A stretch of 33,556 nucleotides of DNA, taken from Candidatus Iainarchaeum sp. (GTDB lineage Archaea > Iainarchaeota > Iainarchaeia > Iainarchaeales > JAFGBZ01). This document shows, in pieces, positions 4,815 to 32,956 of this stretch (the first letter of the stretch is position 1; every line of letters starts with the position of its first letter). The DNA lies in contig JAFGBZ010000062.1 in assembly GCA_016932875.1 (NCBI GenBank), forward strand, positions 1-33,556, read 5' to 3'. The position numbers and the translations under genes were made by a program. A model generated the notes under the pieces. It was not told where the DNA came from. It ran no database searches and saw only the letters and a program-made list of their open reading frames with translations.

Positions 4815-6164
4815 TTAAATTAATTTTCTGTATTTATTTAATCCTGTTCCATACTGAATTGCTTTCTTTTTTCTTTCAATAGCTGTTTTTGAAACCCCGA
4901 ATTCTTTTCCTAATTCTCTTATTGGATGTTTTCTTAATTCATCTGAAATCGAATAAATTTTTTTTTCAGCAGAAAAAGCAACAGCTTTTTTTACAAACTC
5001 TAAATCAAGCAAAGGAGCATTAAAATTCAAATTAAATTTAGATGAAATCATTTCCTCGCGATAAAAATTTCTTGCATGCATTACATCCAAAAAATAATAA
5101 ATCTGCTCTTGAACCCCTAAATAACCTTTATTCTGTAAAGCAGATTTGAATTCACTGTAACCGCAGAATAATTCATCGCTTCCCTGCCCGTTAAAAATAG
5201 TCTTGAATCCTTTATCTGAAACATTTTCTGCAAGAATAAATTCAGGCAAACCAATCTGCAACTGCATTTCATCAAAAAAATACAATGCTTTAAGGGTTTC
5301 AATAACTTTTAATTTTAAATCTTTTTCTTTCACTTCAATTAACTCTAAATCTAAATTCATTTCTTTAGCTGATTTTTTAGCATAAATTAAATCCTGCGAG
5401 CCTTTAATTCCAACAGAAAATAAAACAGTTTTTTTCACTTTATCACTTACTGCTTTAGCAATTAAAGAAGAATCAATTCCTCCGCTGAAAAAAATTCCTG
5501 CTTTAGAAACTCCTTTAGTTCTTAATTCAATTGAATCATTAAAAGAAGAAACTAATTCAGGAAAAGATGTTTTTGATTTGATTTTTTTTAAATCCTCAAA
5601 ATTAAATAATTTTTTTAATTCAAATTTTCCTTCACTGAATTCAAGCAAATGCCCTGCAGGAAGCATTAAAGGAAAAGAAATATCCAGTTTTCTTAAAGCG
5701 CGGGGCTCTGAAGCAACAGCAAAAAAATTCGAAGTTTCACCAAACCATAAAGGCTTTGCCCCTAAAAAATCATTGAAAAAAAAGAATTTATTTCCTGAAT
5801 TAAATGCAACAGCATATTCTCCTCTTGCAATTGAAACAAATTCATTTAATTCAATTAAATTATTAAAATCAATTTTTTCCAACTTATTTAATGCTTCTGA
5901 ATTAAATATTTTTCCAGTTAAATAAATTCCTTTTTTAATTAAAAAAGAATTTTCTTCAAACTCGTTTTTAAAACAATTAAATGCAATTCCTTCACTGCAA
6001 GAAAAATCTTTTTCATTTAATCCTTTCAAATTATTTGAATTAATTTTTTCTTTTCCATTTAATTCAAAGAAATCCAATCCTCTGTGTTTTTGAGAATACA
6101 GGAAATCAATTAAATGCATTTTAACAGGATTTTTCTTTGAATAAATGAATGAAACTGAAGCCAT
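4815..6164 (-). CDS. Asparagine synthetase B-like protein (degenerate Ntn glutaminase domain plus PP-loop synthetase domain)
   Basis: Motifs HRG.D, G.KPL, ASE, PP-loop FSGGIDSS, GQGSDELF.GY and R.KKAIQYG. ATG 6164 (MASVSF) is preferred over 6203 because it lies 22 nt from a TATA-like element. Confidence 0.8.
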   Translation of the reverse strand: MASVSFIYSKKNPVKMHLIDFLYSQKHRGLDFFELNGKEKINSNNLKGLNEKDFSCSEGIAFNCFKNEFEENSFLIKKGIYLTGKIFNSEALNKLEKIDFNNLIELNEFVSIARGEYAVAFNSGNKFFFFNDFLGAKPLWFGETSNFFAVASEPRALRKLDISFPLMLPAGHLLEFSEGKFELKKLFNFEDLKKIKSKTSFPELVSSFNDSIELRTKGVSKAGIFFSGGIDSSLIAKAVSDKVKKTVLFSVGIKGSQDLIYAKKSAKEMNLDLELIEVKEKDLKLKVIETLKALYFFDEMQLQIGLPEFILAENVSDKGFKTIFNGQGSDELFCGYSEFKSALQNKGYLGVQEQIYYFLDVMHARNFYREEMISSKFNLNFNAPLLDLEFVKKAVAFSAEKKIYSISDELRKHPIRELGKEFGVSKTAIERKKKAIQYGTGLNKYRKLI

Positions 6165-6377: not shown

Positions 6378-7649
6378 ATGGAATTTAATGAAATAACTTT
6401 AAGCAAAGAAGAACTGCCAAAAAATTACTATAATTTTATGGCTGATTTAGATAAACCAATGCCAATACCTAAAGGAGATATGAGCATTTTAGGAAAAGTT
6501 TTTGGTAAAAGCGTGCTGGAACAGGAAATGAGTCAAGAAAGGTTTATTCCTATTCCGCAGGAAGTAAGAGAAATTTATTCTCTTTTAGGAAGACCTACAC
6601 CAGTTTACAGGGCAAGAAGACTTGAAAAAAAACTGAACACGCCTGCAAAAATTTATTTTAAAAGAGAAGATGTTTCAGTTGTGGGCTCGCATAAAACAAA
6701 TACAGCAATAGCGCAGGCATATTACTGTAAAAAAGACGGCTTCACTCATTTAACAACTGAAACAGGAGCAGGATATTGGGGAAGCGCATTGGCTGTGGCA
6801 AGCACTTTATTTGATTTGAAATGCAAAGTATTCATGGTTTCAAGCAGCTATGAACAAAAGCCATACAAGAAATATTTAATGAAATTATTTGGAGCTGAAG
6901 TGATTTCTTCTCCTTCAAATAAAACAAAGTATGGAAAAAAAATTCTTGCAGAAAACCCAAATCATATTGGTTCATTAGGAATTGCAATAAGCGAAGCAAT
7001 GGAATTAGCGATGCAGGATGAAAAAACCGCTTACTGTCTGGGAAGTGTTTTAAACCATGTAATGATTCATCAATCAGTAATAGGACAAGAAGCAATAATT
7101 CAAATGCAGAAAGCAGATGATTTTCCTGATTCAATTATTGCATGCGTTGGAGGAGGAAGTAATTTTTCCGGAATTGCTTTTCCATTCATGCAGAAAAAAT
7201 TCAAAGACAAAGAAATTAATTTTACTGCAGTTGAACCAAAAGAAAGCGCTTCAATAACAAAAGGAAAATATGAATATGATTACGGCGACAGCTCAGGATT
7301 AACTCCTTTAATGAAAATGTATACGCTTGGAAAAGATTTTATTCCAGAACTGATTTTTGCACAAGGATTAAGATATCATGCAATGGCTCCAAGTTTATCA
7401 CATTTTGTAAAACAAGGAAAAATCAATGCAAAAGCATATGCACAAAAAGAAGTTTTTCTTGCAGCAAAAATTTTCAGTGAAACTCAAGGATTAGTTCCGG
7501 CGCCGGAATCAGCTCACGCAATAAAAGAAGCAATTGAACAAGCAATTGAATGCAAAAAAACAGGTGAAAGCAAAACAATTTTATTCAATTTAAGCGGACA
7601 CGGATTAATGGATTTGCCAGGATATGCAGAAGTATTAAACTTCAAATAA
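6378..7649 (+). CDS. trpB2: Tryptophan synthase beta chain, type 2 (TrpB2)
   Basis: Motifs GRPTP..RA..LE, PLP lysine GSHK.N, TTETGAGYWG, CVGGGSNF, GLRYH, PAPESAHA and NLSGHGL.D. Shine-Dalgarno AGGAGG at 6364-6369. Confidence 0.93.
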   Translation: MEFNEITLSKEELPKNYYNFMADLDKPMPIPKGDMSILGKVFGKSVLEQEMSQERFIPIPQEVREIYSLLGRPTPVYRARRLEKKLNTPAKIYFKREDVSVVGSHKTNTAIAQAYYCKKDGFTHLTTETGAGYWGSALAVASTLFDLKCKVFMVSSSYEQKPYKKYLMKLFGAEVISSPSNKTKYGKKILAENPNHIGSLGIAISEAMELAMQDEKTAYCLGSVLNHVMIHQSVIGQEAIIQMQKADDFPDSIIACVGGGSNFSGIAFPFMQKKFKDKEINFTAVEPKESASITKGKYEYDYGDSSGLTPLMKMYTLGKDFIPELIFAQGLRYHAMAPSLSHFVKQGKINAKAYAQKEVFLAAKIFSETQGLVPAPESAHAIKEAIEQAIECKKTGESKTILFNLSGHGLMDLPGYAEVLNFK

Positions 7650-19575: not shown

Positions 19576-19649
19576 GCACTCGTAGCGTAATGGTAGCGTT
19601 CGAGCCTTCCAAGCTCGCGGTTCGGGTTCGAATCCCGGCGAGTGCACCA
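19576..19649 (+). tRNA. tRNA-Gly(UCC), 3' CCA encoded
   Basis: Acceptor stem GCACTCG/CGAGTGC, anticodon arm CGAGC-CT-TCC-AA-GCTCG, T-loop GGTTCGAATCC, ends ACCA. Confidence 0.96.
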
Positions 19650-22920: not shown

Positions 22921-23001
22921 AAATGCGAAGCAAAGACTGCTGAAAGCAGTCTACGCCTGCCGGCTGGCGTGACAGCTGAGCGGAGTGAGCAGCTGAAATG
23001 C
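22921..23001 (+). repeat. GC-rich multi-hairpin element (family A, divergent copy) abutting the 3' end of tRNA-Gly(CCC)
   Basis: GCGAAGC (22925-22931), AGACTGCT-GAA-AGCAGTCT (22934-22952), ACGCC/GGCGT (22953-22970) and CAGCTG/CAGCTG (22973-22995). AAATGC on both sides. Confidence 0.6.
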
Positions 23002-23070
23002 ATCTGCCGGGATTTGAACCCGAATCAAAAGCTTGGGAAGCTCTCATCCTAACCATTAGACTACAGATGC
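22999..23070 (-). tRNA. tRNA-Gly(CCC)
   Basis: Minus strand GCATCTG...AGAGC-TT-CCC-AA-GCTTT...GGTTCAAATCC...CAGATGC-A. No encoded CCA. Confidence 0.94.
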
Positions 23071-26062: not shown

Positions 26063-26163
26063 TGTTTATCTCTTTTATATTAATCATATAAGAGAGTATT
26101 TATTTTTTGGGTTATGGTTTAAAAACCTTTAAGGTAAAGAAAATAGTAATTGAGTGATTTAAA

Positions 26164-26319
26164 ATGAAGGTTTGTGGCAGTTGTAATAAAGAAGTTTCAG
26201 ATGATTTTGTTGAATTTAAATGTCCTAGTTGCGGTAAAAGCAATATAATTAGATGCCTGCATTGCCGTGCTACTTCAAAAGAATATAAATGCGAAGAATG
26301 CGGTTTTACCGGTCCATAG
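26164..26319 (+). CDS. Small Zn-ribbon protein (DUF1610/HVO_2753-like), below the ORF-track size cutoff
   Basis: MKVCGSCNKEVSDDFVEFKCPSCGKSNIIRCLHCRATSKEYKCEECGFTGP*. Four CxxC pairs, in the usual position upstream of aEF-1beta. Confidence 0.92.
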   Translation: MKVCGSCNKEVSDDFVEFKCPSCGKSNIIRCLHCRATSKEYKCEECGFTGP

Positions 26320-26327
26320 GTGAGTTA

Positions 26328-26591
26328 ATGGGCAAAATGATTGTTATTTACAGAATTAATCCTAAAGAACAAGAACAAGCAGAAGAATGTCTTGAAACCA
26401 TTAAATCAGGAAGTTTTTCAGGCGAATTAAGAGATGTTCAAATGGCTTCACCTGGATTTGGAATAAAAATAATTAAAGCAGCTTTTTTACTGCCTGATAA
26501 AGTTGAAGGCGTAGTAGATAAATTAACTGAAGAAATAACTGCATTAGATTTAGTTGAAGATGCAGAAGTAGAAGGAATGAATTTACTTTAA
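26328..26591 (+). CDS. ef1b: Translation elongation factor 1-beta
   Basis: MG..IV.YRI.P, P.FGIK, D.L.E.I..L..VE.AEV. GGTGA Shine-Dalgarno at 26319-26323 supports start 26328. Synteny with the Zn-ribbon gene. Confidence 0.85.
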   Translation: MGKMIVIYRINPKEQEQAEECLETIKSGSFSGELRDVQMASPGFGIKIIKAAFLLPDKVEGVVDKLTEEITALDLVEDAEVEGMNLL

Positions 26592-26659
26592 TTCTGCACT
26601 GCCGAAGGCGTGCTCACGTGCCAACGGAGTGAACCGTTGAAGGAATGAATTTACTTTAA
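26571..26659 (+). repeat. GC-rich hairpin element (family A, copy 1) flanked by a perfect 21-nt direct repeat of the ef1b 3' end
   Basis: GAAGGAATGAATTTACTTTAA at 26571-26591 and 26639-26659. Core 26592-26638 has two hairpins. Confidence 0.85.
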
Positions 26660-26697
26660 ATTAATTCTATAAACTTTTTCTTTTCTTTTAATATTAT

Positions 26698-28758
26698 ATG
26701 ATTAAATCCATTGAATTAACTAACTGGAAAAGCCATCAGCATTCTGTTTTAGAGTTTGAAAAAGGAACCAATGTATTAATTGGTGTTGCAGGAGCAGGAA
26801 AAAGCAGTGTAATGGATGCAATCTGTTATGCTTTATACGGGACTTTTCCTTCACTGAATTCAAAAAAAGTATCAATTTCTGAAGTGCTTATGAATAAGCC
26901 GATTAAAGCAGAAGAAGGAAAACTAAAGTTATGTTTTGAATACAATGAAAAAGAATATGAAATTGAAAGAACAATTTATTTGAAAGGCGTGAATCAAGCG
27001 AATTTAAGAGAATCAGGAAGAATTATTGCCGGCCCAAAGCCAAAAGAAGTAAATGAAAAAATAATTGATTTAATTAAAGTTGATTTTGATTTATTTTCAA
27101 GAGCAATTTACTCTGAACAAAATAATCTGGATTATTTTTTAAGAATGACTCCAATGCAGAGAAAACAAAAATTTGATGAACTACTGCAGATAAATAAATA
27201 TGAAGAAGCAAGAAGCAATTGCCTGACTGCAGTAAATAGATTAAAGAAAACAAATGAAGAAAGAATGAAATTAATTGAATCGCAAAAAAAAGCATTCAAT
27301 GAAAAAGAATTAAGCATGCTTGAAGAAAAAATAAAAGAAAAAGAAAAATTAATTAATGAAATTGAAAAAAATTCAGTTGAATTAAAGGAAAAAGAAAAAA
27401 CATTAAAGGAAAAAATGCAGAAAAACGAATTAAAGGAAAAAGAATTCAAGGAACTGAATAATGCAGTGAATTTAATTAAAGGGAAAACTGATTCAGCGGA
27501 AAAAGAATTAATGAAAGCAAAAAAAGAAGTAAATGAAAAAAATATTGATAAAATAAAAGAAGAAATGAATGAATTAATTAAAGTGCTTGAATTAATTCCT
27601 TTAAAGAAAAAAGAAATTGAAAAAAAATTGAATGAAAAAGAAGAAAAATATTCAATGAATTTAAAAGAATGCTCTGGAATTGAAGCAAAAGAAAAGCAAT
27701 TGCAGGAATCTAAAAATAAACTGCAGGAAATAGGGGCTGAATGCCCTTTATGCAGGAAACCCATGGAAATGCATTCAAAACAAGAATTAATGCAGGAAAT
27801 TGAAAAAGAAGCAGTAAAACTGAAACAGGAATTTGAATTAAAAGAAAAAGAACTGAAAAAAATAAGCGAAGAAAAAAAAGAATTAAAAAAAGAAATTGAA
27901 TTAATTTCAGAAAAAGAAAAAAAACTGATTGAAGAAAAATATGAACTGCAGGAAAAAATCAGTTCATTTAAATTAATGCAGGAAAAAGAAAAAGAAGTAA
28001 AGGAACTTGAAGAAAAGAAAAAAGAACTGATGAATGCGTTAAAGAAAACAGAATTCAATGAAAAGGAATTCAATGAATTAAAACAGGAATTTTATTCATT
28101 AAAAGAAAAAATTAATTCAAAGGAAAAAGAAATTTCAGGAGAAAAAGAATTAATTCAGGAAATGAATAAACGCATTAATGAAATGAATGAATTCAGGAAA
28201 TCATTCACTGAATTAGAATTAAAAGCAGTTCATTCAAAAGAAATGCAGGAAAAGCTTTCAGTTTTCATGAATTCATTAAAGCAGACTCAAAACGAATTAA
28301 GAGTTGTTTTAATTGATTCAATTAATTCAGCAATGGAAAGCATCTGGCCTCAGGTTTATCCTTACAAAGATTTTTCTTCAGCAAAAATAATTGTAAATGA
28401 AGGAGAATATGAAGTAATGGTGAAAAACAAGGAAAATGAATTCATTAGAGTTGAAGGAATTCTTTCAGGAGGAGAAAGAACTGCAGCAGCAATAACTTTA
28501 AGGATTGCTTTCTCGCTTGTATTAACTCAGAATTTAGGATGGATTATTTTAGATGAACCGACTCATAATTTAGATGAACGTTCAGTGAAAGAATTAGCAG
28601 TAATGCTGAAAAAACATCTGCCTGAAATAGTTGAACAGGTTTTTGTTATAACTCATGATAATGAAATGAAGAACGCTGCAACAGGAAAACTTTATTTACT
28701 GGAAAGAAAAAAAGAAGAATTTGAATCAACAAATATTATTGAAACAAATTTATTTTGA
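26698..28758 (+). CDS. rad50: DNA double-strand break repair ATPase Rad50
   Basis: Walker A GVAGAGKSS, Q-loop YSEQ, coiled coil with central Zn hook CPLC, signature LSGGE, Walker B ILDEPT and ITH. Confidence 0.9.
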   Translation: MIKSIELTNWKSHQHSVLEFEKGTNVLIGVAGAGKSSVMDAICYALYGTFPSLNSKKVSISEVLMNKPIKAEEGKLKLCFEYNEKEYEIERTIYLKGVNQANLRESGRIIAGPKPKEVNEKIIDLIKVDFDLFSRAIYSEQNNLDYFLRMTPMQRKQKFDELLQINKYEEARSNCLTAVNRLKKTNEERMKLIESQKKAFNEKELSMLEEKIKEKEKLINEIEKNSVELKEKEKTLKEKMQKNELKEKEFKELNNAVNLIKGKTDSAEKELMKAKKEVNEKNIDKIKEEMNELIKVLELIPLKKKEIEKKLNEKEEKYSMNLKECSGIEAKEKQLQESKNKLQEIGAECPLCRKPMEMHSKQELMQEIEKEAVKLKQEFELKEKELKKISEEKKELKKEIELISEKEKKLIEEKYELQEKISSFKLMQEKEKEVKELEEKKKELMNALKKTEFNEKEFNELKQEFYSLKEKINSKEKEISGEKELIQEMNKRINEMNEFRKSFTELELKAVHSKEMQEKLSVFMNSLKQTQNELRVVLIDSINSAMESIWPQVYPYKDFSSAKIIVNEGEYEVMVKNKENEFIRVEGILSGGERTAAAITLRIAFSLVLTQNLGWIILDEPTHNLDERSVKELAVMLKKHLPEIVEQVFVITHDNEMKNAATGKLYLLERKKEEFESTNIIETNLF

Positions 28759-28947
28759 TTCTGCTGCACTTACTGTGCGGGTAATAAATCCTGCAACAAG
28801 ATTTCTTGTTGTTTTATCAAAAGGTAAATCCAGTGAATCAACAACTCTTTTGTTTGCATCAAAATTTTCTTTAACAAACTTGTCTTTATATCTTTCAAGC
28901 AATTCAGCTGAAATCATTTTAATTCTTCTTGGAACAGCTTTGCCCAT
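28750..28947 (-). CDS. rps17e: 30S ribosomal protein S17e
   Basis: MG....IK..S.EL..Y...F...F..NK..V.......RN.VAGFITR pattern. Confidence 0.92.
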   Translation of the reverse strand: MGKAVPRRIKMISAELLERYKDKFVKENFDANKRVVDSLDLPFDKTTRNLVAGFITRTVSAAESK

Positions 28948-29160
28948 TTAATTCACCTCAACAATCTCTGATTTTCCATTAGGAAAAGCCCTGATTACAT
29001 TAATTGGAAGGACTTTCTGATCAAATTCAATTTTAGCAATATCAGTTGGAGAAGAATCCTTTGAATATTTTACCAAAGGAGGCGCTCCCAATGAAATTTG
29101 TAATGCTCTAGCGCTAATCAAGCGAGTTACTTCAAAAATACTTAATTTTTCCAAATTCAC
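28948..29160 (-). CDS. rpoK: DNA-directed RNA polymerase subunit K (Rpo6)
   Basis: FE.TRLISARALQISLGAP.LV and IA..EF....LPI.V.R. GTG start. Confidence 0.94.
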   Translation of the reverse strand: MNLEKLSIFEVTRLISARALQISLGAPPLVKYSKDSSPTDIAKIEFDQKVLPINVIRAFPNGKSEIVEVN

Positions 29161-29218
29161 ACCTTAAATAATTAACAATACTTATGATTCTTTTCAAGGA
29201 AAAATTAATAAATGAACA

Positions 29219-30727
29219 CTAAACAGCACATGAGCTCCATTCGGAAACAATTTTAGGAGAAGGAAACCCTGATTTAAGGGAAAAATCCCTTAAAATGCTT
29301 AAAGGGAACTTTGCCTGAACTAATGCCTTTTCAGGGGAACAGAACAGTATTCTGGCTCCATTGCTTGCAAGATTTTCCTTAAATTCATTCAGTATAAGGT
29401 TTTGCAGAGAATCAATTGATTCAGCTAAAACACCTGAATAAAAACGGGAAAAAGGAGACATTAAATGAAAAGGAATTCCTTCAAGCAAAGAATCAATTGA
29501 AAACTGCAAAAAATTAAGGAAAGCAAATTCAGGAGAAACACTTAATTCTTTTTCATAATTTAATGCAAAAGAATCAATAAATTTTTTATTAAATGAAGAA
29601 ATTAATTTCTCGGATTCATTCAATAAAGAAATTAATTCAGCAAATGAACTGGAAATAAAAGAATTTTTTTTAGTGCAATTCCAGATTAATTTAGAGGAAT
29701 CAAAAATTATTTTTACTTTTTTTTCCTTCAATAAATTTAAAGCATCAGGAAGCGGGATTAATGCTCTTTCTTCGCGCATAAAAGGGCCTAAAGGAGGAAA
29801 CTCTAATCCCCATTCTGCCTGATGTTTTTTTCTTGCGTGCATTAAAGGGTTTGATTTATGAAAAGAAGAAGCAAAACTTGGATTAAAAGAAGAAAACATT
29901 AATCCATCAGAAAGAAATTCAACTTCAATTAATGAATTAGGCAAAAGATTTGAATTATTCAATGAACTTGGCTTGCAGCAATTGCAATTAATTGAATCAA
30001 ACCCTAAATTATGAAATTCTTTAAGGAAAAGACTGCTCCAAAGCTGATTGAAATTCATTTCACATAAATTATTTTTAATCACATCAATTTTTTCGCGTTT
30101 AACAGGAAGAAAATCAGATTCAATTCTTTCAGGAAAAGAAAAACTGTTTTCAAAAAAAGAATTCTGCAAAAAAACCTCGCAGGCAATAAATTTTTCAGTT
30201 GAAACAATTGAAGGAGAAATTTTTAAAATTTTGCTTAAAGAAATGCGGTGCAGTAATTCACGCGCACTCTTAGGGCTTGAAGAAAGCATTTCTCTTAAAA
30301 GAGAATTCAATGGAACTGAATCAAGCATTATTTCAGGAAAAGAAACAGAAGAAATTTTTTCAGGAAATTTATTCATAAAAATAAATTCATCAAAATAACT
30401 CCATTTTTTTGAAATAAGAAACTGTCTTTCAGGTTCAATCAATAAAACAGAATCAATTCCAAATAAAGCAGAAAAATTCTTTAAAGCAGAAAAATTCACT
30501 GCAGTGATTTTCAAAGAATTTTTTTCTTCATTCAATGAAATCTGTTTTTTGAATTTATTTGAAATTAATTCAAATGCTTTGGTTTTCAGAGTTAAAGGAA
30601 TAAATGCATAAGGAAAAAACTGTTCACGGTAAATTTTTCCACTGCATCCATTATGAAACTGGCATGCTATTTCCTTTTTTTCTTCTGAATAGAGAACTTT
30701 AACTAAAAATGCTCTTGGGGGAGACAT
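29219..30727 (-). CDS. Catalytically inactivated, truncated family B DNA polymerase (PolB2-like)
   Basis: N-terminal FFPYAF and EPERQFLI. Motif A remnant EMNFNQLWSSL....HNLGFDSINCNCC, WNCTKK.SFI, motif B remnant (SRFY....AESI) and motif C remnant GARILFCSPEKALV. Confidence 0.72.
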   Translation of the reverse strand: MSPPRAFLVKVLYSEEKKEIACQFHNGCSGKIYREQFFPYAFIPLTLKTKAFELISNKFKKQISLNEEKNSLKITAVNFSALKNFSALFGIDSVLLIEPERQFLISKKWSYFDEFIFMNKFPEKISSVSFPEIMLDSVPLNSLLREMLSSSPKSARELLHRISLSKILKISPSIVSTEKFIACEVFLQNSFFENSFSFPERIESDFLPVKREKIDVIKNNLCEMNFNQLWSSLFLKEFHNLGFDSINCNCCKPSSLNNSNLLPNSLIEVEFLSDGLMFSSFNPSFASSFHKSNPLMHARKKHQAEWGLEFPPLGPFMREERALIPLPDALNLLKEKKVKIIFDSSKLIWNCTKKNSFISSSFAELISLLNESEKLISSFNKKFIDSFALNYEKELSVSPEFAFLNFLQFSIDSLLEGIPFHLMSPFSRFYSGVLAESIDSLQNLILNEFKENLASNGARILFCSPEKALVQAKFPLSILRDFSLKSGFPSPKIVSEWSSCAV

Positions 30728-30749
30728 AATAATAAAGAAAAATCCGGAA

Positions 30750-30784
30750 TTTAAAAAGCATCGGAAGGAGTAGATTGCCGGTGC
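30750..30784 (-). promoter_or_regulatory. Promoter with shared upstream motif, copy 2 (PolB2-like gene)
   Basis: Minus strand GCACCGGCAA (30784-30775)-N7-CTTCC-N5-TTTTTAAA (30757-30750)-N22-ATG 30727. Confidence 0.75.
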
Positions 30785-31006
30785 CAGAAATGCATTAAAA
30801 TGCCTTAAAAAGGCAAAAATAAAGGTTAAAGGAATGCTTAAATAACTAATACCACGGAATATGGTTAGCTGATGGAGGCAAAGTTCAGAGGGCTTTGATT
30901 ATCAGCATTAAATCAAAAACAAACCTGCTTTTCCAAAAAAAAATTTTAAAAATTGTTTAACCTAATTAATACCTCTAAAAAAAGAAAAAAAATAAGGGGG
31001 AATATT

Positions 31007-31093
31007 ATGGCTCAAAAAAGGAAAAAAAGAGAAGAAGATGAATCTGAAAGAGAAGATTTTGAAGAAGAAAAATACGAAGAAGATGAATACTAA
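31007..31093 (+). CDS. 28-aa basic/acidic micro-protein
   Basis: MAQKRKKREEDESEREDFEEEKYEEDEY*. Strong AGGGGG Shine-Dalgarno at 30995-31000 and GAA-rich codon usage as in neighbouring genes. Confidence 0.6.
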   Translation: MAQKRKKREEDESEREDFEEEKYEEDEY

Positions 31094-31106
31094 AAAAGGG
31101 AATTAA

Positions 31107-31262
31107 ATGAATGCAGATAAATACGCTAAATGGAATCCACCGAAAACAAAAACATATAAATGCATGAACTGCGGAAAAGAAATAGCTTCAACAGAACAAG
31201 GAAATCCGTTAAGCAAAAGATTTTGTTCAGAAAAATGCAGACAAGAATATCTCACAGAATAA
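31107..31262 (+). CDS. 51-aa TRASH/FCS-type zinc-finger protein
   Basis: MNADKYAKWNPPKTKTYKCMNCGKEIASTEQGNPLSKRFCSEKCRQEYLTE*. CxxC...FCSxxC motif and AAGGG Shine-Dalgarno. Confidence 0.82.
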   Translation: MNADKYAKWNPPKTKTYKCMNCGKEIASTEQGNPLSKRFCSEKCRQEYLTE

Positions 31263-31277
31263 AATTACTATTTTTTT

Positions 31278-31309
31278 AAGGGAAGAAATTCCCTTCACTT
31301 TTTATTTTT
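31278..31309 (+). terminator. Hairpin plus T tract after the small-ORF pair
   Basis: AAGGGAA-GAAA-TTCCCTT (31278-31295) followed by CACTTTTTATTTTT. Confidence 0.55.
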
Positions 31310-31340
31310 CACTTTTCAAAATTAATAATATTTAATTAAA

Positions 31341-31435
31341 TTACAAAAAATCTTCTGCTTCAGCCGTCCCGTCGGCTGGCGGACGGAGCACGCCTTCAGC
31401 AGTGCAGAATCAATTCACAGAAAATCTTCTGCTTC
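31341..31435 (-). repeat. GC-rich hairpin element (family A, copy 2) flanked by a 21-nt near-perfect direct repeat of the herA 3' end
   Basis: Minus strand GAAGCAGAAGATTTTCTGTGA (31435-31415) and GAAGCAGAAGATTTTTTGTAA (31361-31341). The core shares 24 of 25 nt with 26591-26615. Confidence 0.85.
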
Positions 31436-32956
31436 TTTTACTGCTTCATCTTTGTTTTCTTCAAATCTTTTTGCTTCATCTTCTAAAGTAACTGAATGCC
31501 TTGATTCAGGAGAATTTCTTTTTCTTACACTGAAAAAAAGAGGATAATTAACTCCTTCACCAATAATTAATGCTTCTCCAACTCTTAAAGAAGTAATCAT
31601 GTCTTTTGAATTTGAATCAATTCCTTCAGCGCTTTTACCAATATGATCCAAATCATAAGGATTAGTAATTCGTAAAATAATGTTTGTATTACACTGGCTT
31701 AAAGCAGTAGCACTTAATTTAATCGGACGCTGAGAAATTAAACACAATGAAGCGCCAAACTTTCTTCCTTCTCTTGCAATTGTTTCAATAATGCTTCTGC
31801 AAATTGCATTCTCATAAGAAGCACCTTCAGGAACAAACTGATGAGCTTCCTCTAAAACCAATAAATAAGGAGGAACTGTTTTTTTTCTGCGTTCATTAAA
31901 TAATTTTGAAGCAAAAAAAGTAACTAAAATCTGTTTCTTGCGTAAATCAATTATATCACTTAAATCAACTACAACTAAATGCCCTGGCTTAATTAAATCA
32001 ATAACTGAAACAGAATCAGTTTTAGAAAATAAACCAAGAGCATGAAGTGAATCAATCCAAGAAATTAAAGCGCTTTTGGTTTTATCATTCATTTCATCAT
32101 CTTTAAATAATTCTGATTTAACTGAATGAAAATCAAATGGCCCTAATCCTTCCTTCATTTCTTTTTTAAGTTTTAAAATCACTTTATCTAATTCACGGAA
32201 CTGTTGCGCAGAAATATTAGGCAGAAAAGAAGCAATCATTCCAGGAGAAAGATTTGAAACACCTATTTTGAAATCTCTTCCATTAATAATTCTGGTTTGA
32301 GTTGAATAATCTTTTTCACCTTTTTCAGGTTTTAAAGCAAAAGAACTGTATTCACCATGAACATCTAAAATAATTGTTGCAATTCTTCCGGCATCTTTTT
32401 TTCTGGAAAGAATTTCCTCTAATAAAACACTCATACAATAACTTTTTCCTGCACCACTCATTGCAAGCAAAGCCAAATGCTTTTGAAGCAGTTTAGTTAA
32501 ATTTAATTTCACTGGAATTTCATGAAAAGGAACTTCTCCTAACAATAAACCGTTTTCTTTATCAAAACCTAAAAATTTTTCCAATATTTTTTCATCAGCA
32601 ATTTTAACTTTATCTCCAGGACTTGGAGGAAAAGTAGGACGCTTAAGCATTCCATTAGAATACACTCCTAAAGGCCTTGTTTGTGCAACCAAATATTCCC
32701 ATTCTTCTGCAGGAAAAGAATCAAATAATTTTCTTCCCTGAGATTCAAATTCTTTTACTGCCTCGCTTCTTTCAAAATAACGATTTGATTTCACTAAATT
32801 AACAACCAAAGCAACAAGAATTCCTTCAGCATAATTAATTTCAACAAACTGTCCGCGATGAACTTTTCCTTTACTTACAACAAAATCCAAAGCACTTGGA
32901 CTTGGCCCTAAAGGACTTGAAACAACTGTACCAATTTCTTCAATCAAAAAAATCAC
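31415..32956 (-). CDS. herA: HerA helicase/translocase (FtsK-HerA family, N-terminal HAS barrel)
   Basis: IGTVVS...F.V...V..GQFV barrel. Motifs HLALLAMSGAGKSY, D.HGEY, LEEAHQF.P, IAREGRKFG and ISQRP..L....LSQCNT. Confidence 0.88.
   Translation of the reverse strand: MIFLIEEIGTVVSSPLGPSPSALDFVVSKGKVHRGQFVEINYAEGILVALVVNLVKSNRYFERSEAVKEFESQGRKLFDSFPAEEWEYLVAQTRPLGVYSNGMLKRPTFPPSPGDKVKIADEKILEKFLGFDKENGLLLGEVPFHEIPVKLNLTKLLQKHLALLAMSGAGKSYCMSVLLEEILSRKKDAGRIATIILDVHGEYSSFALKPEKGEKDYSTQTRIINGRDFKIGVSNLSPGMIASFLPNISAQQFRELDKVILKLKKEMKEGLGPFDFHSVKSELFKDDEMNDKTKSALISWIDSLHALGLFSKTDSVSVIDLIKPGHLVVVDLSDIIDLRKKQILVTFFASKLFNERRKKTVPPYLLVLEEAHQFVPEGASYENAICRSIIETIAREGRKFGASLCLISQRPIKLSATALSQCNTNIILRITNPYDLDHIGKSAEGIDSNSKDMITSLRVGEALIIGEGVNYPLFFSVRKRNSPESRHSVTLEDEAKRFEENKDEAVKEAEDFL

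What the first reader, a model, noticed from the sequence alone, without database searches (positions are those of the whole stretch)
26571..31435. Short hairpin element flanked by a 21-nt duplication of the last 7 codons of its host gene, at two independent loci
Seen: after ef1b the order is [GAAGGAATGAATTTACTTTAA] - TTCTGCACTGCCGAAGGCGTGCTC-ACGT-GCC-AACGG-AGTGAA-CCGTT - [same 21 nt]. After herA (minus strand) it is [GAAGCAGAAGATTTTCTGTGA] - ATTG-ATTCTGCACTGCTGAAGGCGTGCTC-CGTCC-GCC-AGCCG-ACGGGA-CGGCT - [GAAGCAGAAGATTTTTTGTAA]. Both duplications are 21 nt, start in frame at GAAG and end at the stop codon. The first hairpin is conserved in sequence (GCAC-T-GCY-GAA-GGC-GTGC). The second is conserved only in structure: a 5-bp stem with compensatory changes and a 6-nt loop, followed directly by GAAG. 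Known: C(GAA)G loops form very stable ssDNA mini-hairpins, and hairpin plus tetranucleotide recognition is how HUH transposases (IS200/IS605, REP/RAYT) act, but those normally make no target duplication. Inference: a non-autonomous mobile unit of about 50 nt with GAAG targeting and unusually long target duplication, by a mechanism that is not obvious.
Basis: partly seen in the sequence, partly recalled or inferred. Interest (0 to 1): 0.85.

Follow-up and report, generated by a model that had tools for sequence, protein, structure and literature searches.

The report
Mobile double-hairpin repeats duplicating gene ends
The two sites belong to an abundant family of tiny GC-rich double-hairpin repeats in a small AT-rich archaeal genome; each insertion copies 20-70 bases of its target, no transposase gene was found, and such repeats seem undescribed in archaea.

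Summary
After ef1b, a 47-nt GC-rich element lies between two identical 21-nt copies of the gene's last 7 codons. After herA, a 53-nt relative lies between two copies that match 19/21.

These are not two special loci. A covariance model finds 38 copies in this 1.0-Mb genome, 21 in a congener, and matches in 45 of 151 genomes of the order.

- **Duplications:** 11 of the 38 copies (herA is a borderline 12th) have flanking duplications of 21-70 nt. The length is variable, not fixed at 21.
- **Junctions:** the downstream copy always starts flush with the element's 3' hairpin. The 5' side is variable.
- **Proof of insertion:** three filled/empty comparisons with the congener show insertion plus target duplication.
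- **Other targets:** a gene's 5' end and three tRNA 3' ends are duplicated in the same way. A second hairpin family does it too, and radA's end is triplicated.
- **tRNA contexts:** other copies abut tRNA ends or open tRNA introns.
- **No enzyme found:** no reverse transcriptase, Y1/HUH transposase, Cas1, TnpB or IS4-type transposase was detected in the genome.

HUH transposition is not supported. My best reading is copy-in by microhomology-guided template switching, with only insertions whose duplication spans a gene end surviving. An RNA-mediated route is not excluded. I class it as a new variant of the hairpin repeats known from mitochondria and bacteria.

The parts
26289..26591 (+). ef1b (EF-1 beta) coding sequence. 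Its last 7 codons including the stop form the upstream duplicate.
   Evidence: ORF list; Pfam EF1_GNE, E 4.7e-07
26571..26591 (+). Upstream copy of the 21-nt target duplication, site 1. This is the functional gene end.
26592..26638 (+). R1 double-hairpin element, 47 nt: a 2-nt leader, hairpin 1 with a GAA triloop, a linker, and hairpin 2. The model match is 26594-26641 and includes the terminal GAA shared with the duplicate.
   Evidence: (64.1 bits)
26639..26659 (+). Downstream copy of the duplication, site 1: a displaced, non-coding relic, 21/21 identical.
31415..32956 (-). herA coding sequence.
   Evidence: Pfam HerA central domain, E 4.5e-31
31415..31435 (-). Upstream copy of the duplication, site 2: the functional herA end with stop TGA. 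The similarity runs on to 31408.
31362..31414 (-). R1 element, 53 nt, including the 7-nt AT leader at 31408-31414. The model match is 31359-31407.
   Evidence: (69.8 bits)
31341..31361 (-). Downstream copy of the duplication, site 2: 19/21 identical, stop TAA. The similarity runs on to 31334.
22932..22980 (+). Third R1 copy in the window. It is antisense to, and 18 nt beyond, the 3' end of a tRNA-Gly gene (22999-23070, - strand). No flanking duplication was detected.
   Evidence: (29.3 bits)
19576..19646 (+). Intron-less tRNA-Gly(UCC). Its counterparts in G002, and as I read it in G001, carry an intron that opens with an antisense R1 element.

Best explanation
The two loci are members of an abundant family of non-autonomous, recently mobile repeats of about 45-55 nt.

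Anatomy. Each copy has:
- a short AT leader;
- a GC-rich hairpin closed by a GAA triloop;
- a linker;
- a second hairpin whose loop can pair with the linker (a pseudoknot or an alternative helix);
- usually a terminal GAA.

Shown:
- New copies arise by insertion.
- Each insertion directly duplicates 20-70 nt of the target.
- The duplicate on the 3' side starts flush with hairpin 2.
- The 5' side is sloppy and can carry extra donor-flank sequence.

Inferred mechanism. The element is copied in rather than cut and pasted. A growing DNA 3' end switches template onto a single-stranded copy of an element. Short homologies guide the switch: the AT leader on one side, which resembles stop-codon contexts, and the GAA or GC-rich 3' terminus on the other. 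The end then returns to its own template behind the point it left. That stretch is re-copied and becomes the duplication. Host replication or repair enzymes would be enough, since no dedicated enzyme gene is seen.

Inferred filter. Selection keeps only insertions whose duplication spans a gene end, so that one intact gene copy remains. GC-rich patches in this AT-rich genome (tRNA acceptor stems and T stems, Glu-rich tails) are the preferred landing points. This would explain why copies pile up at stop codons, tRNA ends and tRNA introns.
For: Family size:
- 38 matches at E<1e-3 in this genome.
- 21 matches in G001 and 15 in G002, and matches in 45 of 151 genomes of the order.

Duplications:
- 11 of the 38 copies exceed the maximum of the null for flanking repeats, and herA equals it. 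Lengths are 21, 24, 26, 26, 28, 28, 37, 40, 40-45, 41, 42 and 70 nt.
- The downstream copy starts at -3 to 0 from the end of the model in 10 cases. It starts at +14 or +15 in the two composite copies.
- The upstream copy ends 0-124 nt before hairpin 1.
- In the G001/G002 sample, 4 of 22 copies show the same thing, with duplications of 23-68 nt.

Filled versus empty sites:
- G001 C3:7196 is filled, with a duplication of about 68 nt across the 5' end of a mevalonate-kinase-like gene. G000 C43 is empty.
- G000 C39:827 (70 nt) and C45:812 (40 nt) are filled, while G001 has a single copy at each site.
- herA in G001 has no duplicate.

Independent hits. The same gene ends were hit independently in G000 and G001 (ef1b, rpiB), by different subfamilies and with different duplication starts.

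Same behaviour beyond this family and beyond protein genes:
- A second hairpin family behaves the same way, and radA's end is triplicated.
- 3 of 36 tRNA genes have their last 21-22 nt duplicated after an element.

Variable 5' extent:
- The C45 copy carries 33 extra nt that read as another gene's tail plus a stop codon.
- C37 and C75 share one 3' part but have 124 and 30 nt of 5' filler.

Structure is under selection:
- Compensatory changes occur in both hairpins.
- Complementarity between the linker and the hairpin-2 loop is higher within copies than between copies (mean 3.76 versus 2.90; 0 of 2000 permutations reached the observed value).

No enzyme gene found. No RVT_1, Y1_Tnp, Cas1 or DDE_Tnp_1 match was found, and no match to the TnpB zinc-ribbon family over its cut-off.
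Against: - Template switching is inferred from junction anatomy only. No intermediate, polymorphic allele or donor-recipient pair was observed. The donor of the C45 filler was not found.
- 26 of the 38 copies show no detectable duplication.
- Junctions coincide with RNA landmarks: tRNA +1, the tRNA 3' end, position 37/38, and the same T-arm position in 3 of 3 tRNA duplications. An RNA-based process explains these more simply than my GC-patch-plus-selection argument does.
- The right-hand edge of the duplication lies only 0-9 nt past the stop codon in all gene-3'-end cases. This is tighter than selection alone predicts.
- The genomes are 75-90% complete MAGs, so a missing enzyme gene is weak evidence.
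- The recurrent GAA triloops and the GCGAAGC heptamer hint at single-stranded DNA. That link comes from recall, not from a test.
Confidence: 0.5

Rival explanations
1. RNA-mediated retroposition, SINE-like. The mobile species would be a stable RNA whose 3' end is fixed just after hairpin 2. One source could be a tRNA 5' leader released at the tRNA +1 site; another could be an mRNA tail trimmed back to the hairpin. A DNA or RNA 3'-OH primes reverse transcription at that end. Template jumps and staggered breaks then give variable 5' ends and variable duplications.
For: - The 3' end is fixed, the 5' extent is variable and can carry an upstream coding tail plus stop codon, and the duplications vary in length.
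- Sense copies abut tRNA +1, at C28 and C97:2493. I also read the G000 C17 and G001 C7:80892 (L188) copies this way.
- Antisense copies abut tRNA 3' ends: C55, C87, C51 and C16:655.
- Antisense copies open tRNA introns right after position 37: C38, and by my reading C16:4928 (G000), the tRNA-Gly intron in G002 (L004) and the G001 C17:6338 copy (L186).
- All 3 tRNA 3'-end duplications start at the same T-arm position.
- The copy on the hairpin-1 side carries more derived changes than the other, roughly 8 versus 2 at sites I could polarise by eye.
Against: - No RVT_1 match in G000, G001 or G002.
- Across 151 relatives, reverse transcriptase occurs in 20 genomes and does not track the element. 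Family f23 has the element in 10 of 16 genomes and reverse transcriptase in 0 of 16. Family f3 has 0 of 16 and 8 of 16.
- No expression data could be obtained, because the RNA runs are held only as contigs.
- GAA-triloop mini-hairpins are, from recall, a DNA feature rather than an RNA one.
Confidence: 0.22
2. Transposase-driven insertion. An enzyme encoded elsewhere, on an unbinned contig, plasmid or virus, makes widely and variably staggered cuts, as reported for IS1634 and IS1549. The repeats would be its miniature derivatives.
For: - Long variable direct repeats of 8-514 bp are documented for IS1549 and IS1634 with no mechanistic model. That family is said to be frequent in Euryarchaeota (PMC2266710, passages read).
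- MAGs often lose mobile-element contigs.
Against: - No DDE_Tnp_1 match in G000.
- The element has no terminal inverted repeats. Its two ends are different hairpins.
- The 5' boundary varies and can carry donor flank, which a transposase that recognises ends would not produce.
- A second, unrelated hairpin family gives the same kind of duplication.
- A viral-contig scan with a linker plus hairpin-2 pattern found 0 matches.
Confidence: 0.13
3. HUH (Y1) single-strand transposition of the IS200/IS605-PATE or REP/RAYT kind.
For: The element has subterminal hairpins, a strand-specific structure, and a short conserved motif next to a hairpin.
Against: - These families insert without target duplication (from recall). 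Here duplications of 21-70 nt are proven by empty sites.
- No Y1_Tnp match, and no match to the TnpB zinc-ribbon family over its cut-off.
Confidence: 0.03
4. These are not mobile now. They would be host RNA-end or processing structures (terminator, stabiliser or tRNA-processing signal), and the flanking repeats would arise by local slippage.
For: - The position right after stop codons and at tRNA ends.
- Structural covariation.
- Hairpin elements at the same gene ends in two species.
Against: - Filled/empty pairs show discrete insertions.
- Near-identical copies sit at unrelated loci, for example C37 and C75.
- A function after insertion is compatible with mobility and was not tested.
Confidence: 0.07

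Closest known systems
Double-hairpin elements (DHEs) of chytrid fungal mitochondria and GC clusters of yeast mitochondria
   Same: Both are short GC-rich elements in an AT-rich genome that fold into one or two hairpins. They are dispersed in intergenic regions, near genes and in introns, and merge into composites. They have no enzyme of their own and their mechanism is unknown. For yeast GC clusters I read passages of PMC4478555: the clusters merge and shuffle, and RNA-mediated spread is suspected. For DHEs I saw only search listings and otherwise rely on recall.
   Different: - The host here is a cellular archaeal genome, not an organelle.
- Yeast clusters are flanked by 2-3 nt repeats (AG or ACT). 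Here the duplications are 21-70 nt.
- The flush 3' junction, the linker-loop pairing and the link to tRNA introns have, to my knowledge (recall), not been reported for them.
GC-rich palindromes flanking tRNA genes in Neurospora mitochondria
   Same: GC-rich hairpins sit directly beside tRNA genes in an AT-rich genome.
   Different: I recall no long target duplications or gene-tail duplications for them. I could not check this.
Bacterial REP/BIME and IS200/IS605-derived PATEs
   Same: Small, abundant, hairpin-forming, strand-specific repeats that often lie just after stop codons.
   Different: They depend on a Y1 (RAYT or TnpA) enzyme and make no target duplication (recall). Both points were tested here and not met.
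IS1634 / IS1549
   Same: Long direct repeats of variable length at insertion sites, still without a mechanistic model (PMC2266710).
   Different: Those are elements of 1.5-2 kb with inverted-repeat ends and a DDE transposase. Here the elements are about 50 nt with no inverted ends, and no such gene was found.
Eukaryotic SINEs and processed pseudogenes (target-primed reverse transcription; recalled)
   Same: A fixed 3' end, a variable 5' end, variable-length duplications, and microhomology at the 3' junction.
   Different: No reverse transcriptase was found in the three genomes richest in copies. No poly-A tail. Prokaryotic host.

Membership tests
IS200/IS605-PATE / REP-RAYT (HUH) | Insertion without target-site duplication | tested here: not met
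   Duplications of 21-70 nt flank 11 of 38 copies, plus herA as a borderline case. Three filled/empty pairs confirm them.
IS200/IS605-PATE / REP-RAYT (HUH) | A Y1 transposase (TnpA or RAYT) in the genome | tested here: not met
   PF01797: 0 matches in G000, which is 90% complete. PF07282, the TnpB zinc-ribbon family: only two hits, both below the cut-off.
Classical MITE (DDE-dependent) | Terminal inverted repeats and a short duplication of fixed length | tested here: not met
   The ends are two different hairpins with no inverted repeat across the element. Duplication length varies from 21 to 70 nt.
IS1634-like elements | Long direct repeats of variable length | tested here: met
   The family property comes from PMC2266710.
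IS1634-like elements | A DDE transposase, or a full-length parent element | tested here: not met
   PF01609: 0 matches in G000. Whether that Pfam model covers all IS1634 transposases was not checked.
Retroposon (SINE-like, target-primed) | Fixed 3' end, variable 5' end, variable duplication, 3' microhomology | tested here: met
Retroposon (SINE-like, target-primed) | A reverse transcriptase available in the host | tested here: not met
   PF00078: 0 matches in G000, G001 and G002. 20 of 151 relatives have one, and its presence does not track the element.
Diversity-generating retroelement (template/variable repeat pair) | Differences between the repeats confined to adenines of the template, plus a reverse transcriptase | tested here: not met
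   By eye, the mismatches between the duplicates are of mixed kinds. No reverse transcriptase was found.
Any Rfam RNA family | A match to a curated covariance model | tested here: not met
   At gathering thresholds the window gives only 4 tRNAs. E-value scans of both sites gave nothing relevant.
Mitochondrial-type double-hairpin / GC-cluster repeats (a kind, not a homologous family) | A short GC-rich element of one or two hairpins, dispersed in an AT-rich genome, with no coding capacity | tested here: met
   The genome is 29.7% GC and the elements are 52-73% GC. There are 38 copies.

The most novel reading that the evidence does not exclude
An archaeal retroposon with no reverse transcriptase of its own. 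The double hairpin would be a hyper-stable by-product RNA, such as a tRNA 5' leader whose 3' end is set by leader removal at tRNA +1. Any free 3'-OH could prime on it: a nicked gene, a mature tRNA 3' end, or a 5' exon. It would then be copied back into DNA by a host polymerase. This would create gene-tail duplications, new stop codons and even new tRNA introns. It would be the first SINE-like system in prokaryotes, and a concrete route for the gain of archaeal tRNA introns.
Probability: 0.2. Interest if true: 0.92.

Novelty: new variant of a known kind. Interest (0 to 1): 0.72.

Why it matters
How tiny GC-rich hairpin repeats spread without an enzyme of their own is a long-standing puzzle. It applies to mitochondrial GC clusters, double-hairpin elements and many bacterial repeats.

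This genome offers an unusually readable case:
- young insertions whose duplications are still intact;
- matching empty sites in a sister species;
- a precise 3' junction and a sloppy 5' junction;
- no transposase or reverse transcriptase in sight.

The insertions also have consequences for the host. They rewrite the last codons and stop codons of housekeeping genes (ef1b, herA, rpiB, radA). They duplicate tRNA 3' ends. They sit at the opening of tRNA introns that are present in one species and absent in its relative. They may therefore bear on how archaeal tRNA introns are gained.

On the practical side, gene callers and tRNA finders will stumble over these structures.

Tried and rejected
- **Exact-pattern scan of genome contigs with the hairpin-1 motif.** It returned 119 stretches, almost all chance hits in GC-rich bacteria. 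Two hits in one unnamed 'archaeon' MAG share a longer conserved stretch of unknown nature, which I did not follow up.
- **Pattern search in 100 relatives.** Of the 4 foreign hits, 3 were chance matches inside genes. The fourth was the tRNA-Gly intron of G002.
- **Linker plus hairpin-2 pattern.** The viral-contig scan found 0 matches. The metagenome-contig scan found 53 hits, all in contigs of at least 44% GC; the 12 lowest-GC hits that I printed are copies of one unrelated conserved stretch, and I did not inspect the rest.
- **Search for the donor of the extra 33 nt at C45.** No other copy exists in G000.
- **Strand test by fold energy and G-U counts.** It was not decisive: 16 G-U pairs in 522 pairs on the sense strand, 38 in 568 on the antisense strand, and the sense strand was the more stable in 15 of 38 copies.
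- **Diversity-generating retroelement.** Rejected: the mismatches are of mixed kinds and there is no reverse transcriptase.
- **Read-through or bypass of the first stop codon.** Rejected: the element lengths of 47, 53 and 49 nt put the second copy out of frame.
- **Integron attC.** Rejected: there are no cassette arrays, and duplications are present.
- **Laying contigs of four runs.** Apart from the one spanning contig at site 1, nothing could be said about site 2, about empty alleles or about expression. Uncovered stretches and the small-share runs X2-X4 carry no weight.
- **A bulge-helix-bulge splicing motif at the coding sites.** I considered this by eye only and did not establish it.
- **Literature.** Searches for this kind of element in DPANN or other archaea gave no description of it. 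That covers only the held library. Supplementary files were not consulted.

Full report
**1. The observation**

Both structures are present as described.

On the + strand, ef1b (26289-26591; Pfam EF1_GNE) ends with a 21-nt stretch at 26571-26591. That stretch is repeated exactly at 26639-26659. The 47 nt between the two copies are GC-rich.

On the - strand, herA (31415-32956; Pfam HerA) ends at 31415-31435. A 19/21 copy lies at 31341-31361, and 53 nt separate the two. The two differences are a synonymous Leu codon and TGA versus TAA.

The shared 22-nt core occurs twice in the window, against none in 100 shuffles. Rfam has no family for it, either at gathering thresholds or in permissive scans of both sites.

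An independently built contig from run X1 covers 26126-26662 without a difference. X1 is probably the source sample, so this excludes an error of one assembler but not an error in the reads.

**2. It is a large family, not two loci**

The window is contig C96 of a genome of 1.0 Mb in 100 contigs, 29.7% GC and about 90% complete.

A loose string search found four copies. I built a covariance model, R1, from those four plus one foreign copy. The model finds:
- 38 matches at E<1e-3 in this genome;
- 21 matches in the congener G001 and 15 in the sister genus G002;
- matches in 45 of the 151 genomes of the order that I searched.

A third copy lies in the window itself, at 22932-22980.

**3. Anatomy**

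Each copy has a short AT leader, hairpin 1, a linker of 7-10 nt, hairpin 2 and usually a terminal GAA.

- Hairpin 1 varies in sequence and nearly always has a GAA triloop. Its closing pair covaries between C-G and T-A.
- Hairpin 2 has 5-6 bp and a 6-nt loop.
- The linker is complementary to the loop of hairpin 2, and this pairing covaries across subfamilies.
  - Within 42 distinct copies the longest linker-loop helix averages 3.76 bp, against 2.90 bp between copies.
  - None of 2000 permutations reached the observed value.
  - Related copies are not independent, so this is support and not proof.

The unit is therefore a compact single-strand fold with a pseudoknot or an alternative helix. Whether the working strand is DNA or RNA could not be settled.

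**4. The flanking duplications are target duplications of variable length**

I aligned 160 nt upstream against 160 nt downstream for all 38 copies. The null came from 224 mismatched pairings of upstream and downstream flanks (median score 9, maximum 18).

- Eleven copies exceed the null maximum, and herA equals it.
- The lengths are 21 (ef1b), 28 (herA, counting the bases after the stop codon), 40-45 (rpiB), 40, 70, 37, 24, 42, 26, 28, 26 and 41 nt.
- In ten of the twelve, the downstream copy starts at -3 to 0 from the model's end. It overlaps the terminal GAA by 0-3 nt. In the two composite copies it starts 14-15 nt further on.
- The upstream copy ends anywhere from 0 to 124 nt before hairpin 1.
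- The remaining 26 of the 38 copies show no detectable duplication.
- In a sample of 22 copies from G001 and G002, four show the same arrangement (23, 25, 29 and about 68 nt). Two more are visible below the threshold.
- A scan that ignores the model found 24 direct-repeat pairs in the genome (at least 18 nt long, 45-400 nt apart) with a GC-rich spacer. A few of these are protein-coding repeats.

**5. Filled and empty sites**

- G001 C3:7196 carries an element between two copies of about 68 nt. These copies span the start codon and the first 17 codons of a mevalonate-kinase-like gene on the other strand. G000 has that stretch once, with no element.
- At G000 C39:827 (70 nt) and C45:812 (40 nt), both duplicates align to one and the same segment of G001. 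That segment is single-copy and holds no element.
- herA in G001 has no duplicate and no R1 element, though it has other hairpin modules.
- ef1b and rpiB carry R1-type elements in G001 too. These belong to a different hairpin-1 subfamily. For rpiB the duplication also starts at a different codon, and each species' duplicate resembles its own gene. I read these as independent insertions at the same gene ends.

**6. What gets duplicated**

- Eight of the twelve G000 cases are 3' ends of protein genes, with the element in the sense orientation. The genes include ef1b, herA, rpiB (Pfam LacAB_rpiB) and radA.
- One case is a tRNA 3' end.
- Three cases are intergenic.
- The G001 case in section 5 is a gene's 5' end.
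- radA's tail is present three times. One duplication of 49 nt ends exactly at the stop codon and flanks a second, unrelated hairpin family ('type 2'). The other, of 37 nt, flanks an R1 copy.
- Three of 36 tRNA genes (Thr, Phe, Pro) have their last 21-22 nt repeated after an R1 or type-2 element. Each time the repeat starts at the same T-arm position (G53/T54). It ends 5, 12 and 0 nt past the tRNA's 3' end.

The rule appears to be that an insertion with a long duplication is harmless only if the duplication includes a gene end. In the gene-3'-end cases the right-hand edge lies 0-9 nt past the stop codon, which is tighter than selection alone predicts.

The leader of the window's subfamily looks like a stop-codon context: a stop-like triplet followed by ATT. 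ATT is also the commonest triplet after stop codons in this genome (12% of 773 ORFs). I therefore take the 5' junction to be guided by short homology.

The in-frame GAA start needs little explanation. 63% of GAA trinucleotides in the last 24 codons of ORFs are in frame.

**7. Copies without duplications sit at RNA landmarks**

- Four antisense copies abut tRNA 3' ends, between a 1-nt gap and a 4-nt overlap: C55, C87, C51 and C16:655. The window's own copy lies 18 nt away from one.
- Two sense copies abut tRNA +1: C28 and C97:2493. I read the G000 C17 and G001 C7:80892 (L188) copies the same way.
- Antisense copies form the first 48 nt or so of tRNA introns, directly after position 37.
  - tRNA-Ser at C38 is one case.
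  - I read a tRNA-Arg at C16:4928 as another; the tRNA finders missed it.
  - tRNA-Gly(UCC) of G002 is a third (Rfam tRNA, 51.5 bits).
  - I read the G001 copy at C17:6338 (L186) as the same tRNA-Gly case.
- The G000 counterpart of that tRNA-Gly, at window 19576-19646, has no intron.
- Four antisense copies lie within 6 nt of the stop codon of a gene on the other strand.

**8. Enzymes**

G000 has no match to RVT_1, Y1_Tnp, Cas_Cas1 or DDE_Tnp_1. It has only sub-threshold zinc-ribbon hits for the TnpB-type family.

Among 151 relatives, 20 have a reverse transcriptase, and it does not track the element:
- the three genomes of this family have none;
- family f23 has the element in 10 of 16 genomes and reverse transcriptase in 0 of 16;
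- family f3 has the element in 0 of 16 and reverse transcriptase in 8 of 16.

These are incomplete MAGs, so absence is suggestive only.

**9. Mechanism**

*Shown:* insertion with a long, variable duplication; a precise 3' junction with 0-3 nt of overlap; and a variable 5' junction.

The 5' side can carry extra sequence:
- At C45 there are 33 nt that read as another gene's last codons plus a stop codon and leader.
- Its last 19 nt resemble the end of herA's upstream copy.
- C37 and C75 share their 3' part but have 124 and 30 nt of 5' filler.

At the sites I could polarise by eye with the sister species, the copy on the hairpin-1 side holds about 8 derived changes and the other copy about 2.

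*What this rules out:* a transposase that recognises two defined ends. The duplications also rule out HUH transposition.

*Inferred, my best reading:* a growing 3' end switches onto a single-stranded copy of an element, copies it, and leaves it at the exit of the stable 3' hairpin. It then re-anneals by a few bases behind its point of departure and re-copies that stretch.
- GC-rich patches such as tRNA acceptor stems and T stems would be the favoured landing points for the GC-rich 3' terminus.
- Selection would trim the survivors to exact gene boundaries.

*The main rival:* the same scheme on an RNA copy. It explains the RNA landmarks more naturally but lacks a reverse transcriptase.

I put about 0.5 on the DNA-level, host-enzyme version, 0.22 on the RNA version and 0.13 on an unseen transposase of the IS1634 kind. 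For that family, long variable repeats are on record without a model (PMC2266710).

**10. Comparison and novelty**

The nearest known things are the double-hairpin elements and GC clusters of fungal mitochondria. For yeast GC clusters I read passages of PMC4478555: 2-3-nt flanking repeats, merging of units, mechanism unknown. For the double-hairpin elements I rely on listings only and on recall. Bacterial REP-type repeats are also close.

The element shares their nature. It differs in four ways: the host is cellular and archaeal, the duplications are long and variable, the 3' junction is flush, and copies occur at tRNA ends and in tRNA introns.

My searches of the held library found no description of such elements in archaea. 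Supplements were not available.

I class it as a new variant of a known kind. There is a real chance that the mechanism is new.

Noticed in passing
window 19576-19646; L004 1441-1605 (G002); L186 (G001 C17:6338-6384): tRNA-Gly(UCC) has no intron here. In G002 it has a 94-nt intron at 37/38 whose first 48 nt or so are an antisense R1 element. G001 appears to have the same arrangement. This is either intron loss here or intron gain linked to the element.
   Followed up: partly
G000 C34:5037-5311: The 3' end of radA is present three times: two serial insertions (a type-2 hairpin element, then R1), each with its own duplication (49 and 37 nt).
   Followed up: yes
G000 C69:11056-11181, C2:19879-20031, C74:12701-12821: Three tRNA genes (Thr, Phe, Pro) have their last 21-22 nt duplicated after a hairpin element. 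The duplication starts at the same T-arm position (G53/T54) in all three. This is unexplained.
   Followed up: partly
G000 C37:5129-5314, C75:1450-1542, C34:5086-5149, C2:19923-19987, C74:12722-12800: A second GC-rich hairpin family ('type 2') also makes long duplications, and R1 can sit nested inside it. In addition, the heptamer GCGAAGC recurs just 5' of many R1 copies. I recall it as an unusually stable DNA mini-hairpin.
   Followed up: partly
G000 C39:757-945 and 7449-7590; L187 (G001 C3): Where the sister species gives polarity, the duplicate on the hairpin-1 side (often the functional gene end) carries more derived changes than the displaced copy, about 8 versus 2. The changes include altered stop codons and residues. 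This is a small sample, counted by eye.
   Followed up: partly
G000 C16: about 4890-5040 (- strand): This reads as an intron-bearing tRNA-Arg(GCG) that both ARAGORN and the Rfam tRNA search missed. The intron opens with an antisense R1 copy, and its 3' end can pair with the anticodon loop as in a bulge-helix-bulge motif.
   Followed up: no
L187 (G001 C3:7080-7330): The insertion across the 5' end of a mevalonate-kinase-like gene leaves a displaced start with 17 codons. These run into the antisense element and stop just before the real start codon, forming a possible upstream mini-ORF.
   Followed up: no
L051 4420-4599 and L086 3890-4100 (one unnamed archaeal MAG): Two loci share a conserved GC-rich stretch of about 60 nt that ends in a hairpin nearly identical to hairpin 1 of the G002 copy. 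Its nature is unknown.
   Followed up: no
window 26698-28758 and 31415-32956: A Rad50-like ATPase gene and herA lie a few kb apart on opposite strands, with a hairpin element after the gene just upstream of rad50 (ef1b) and after herA. This is ordinary repair-gene content, noted only as context.
   Followed up: no
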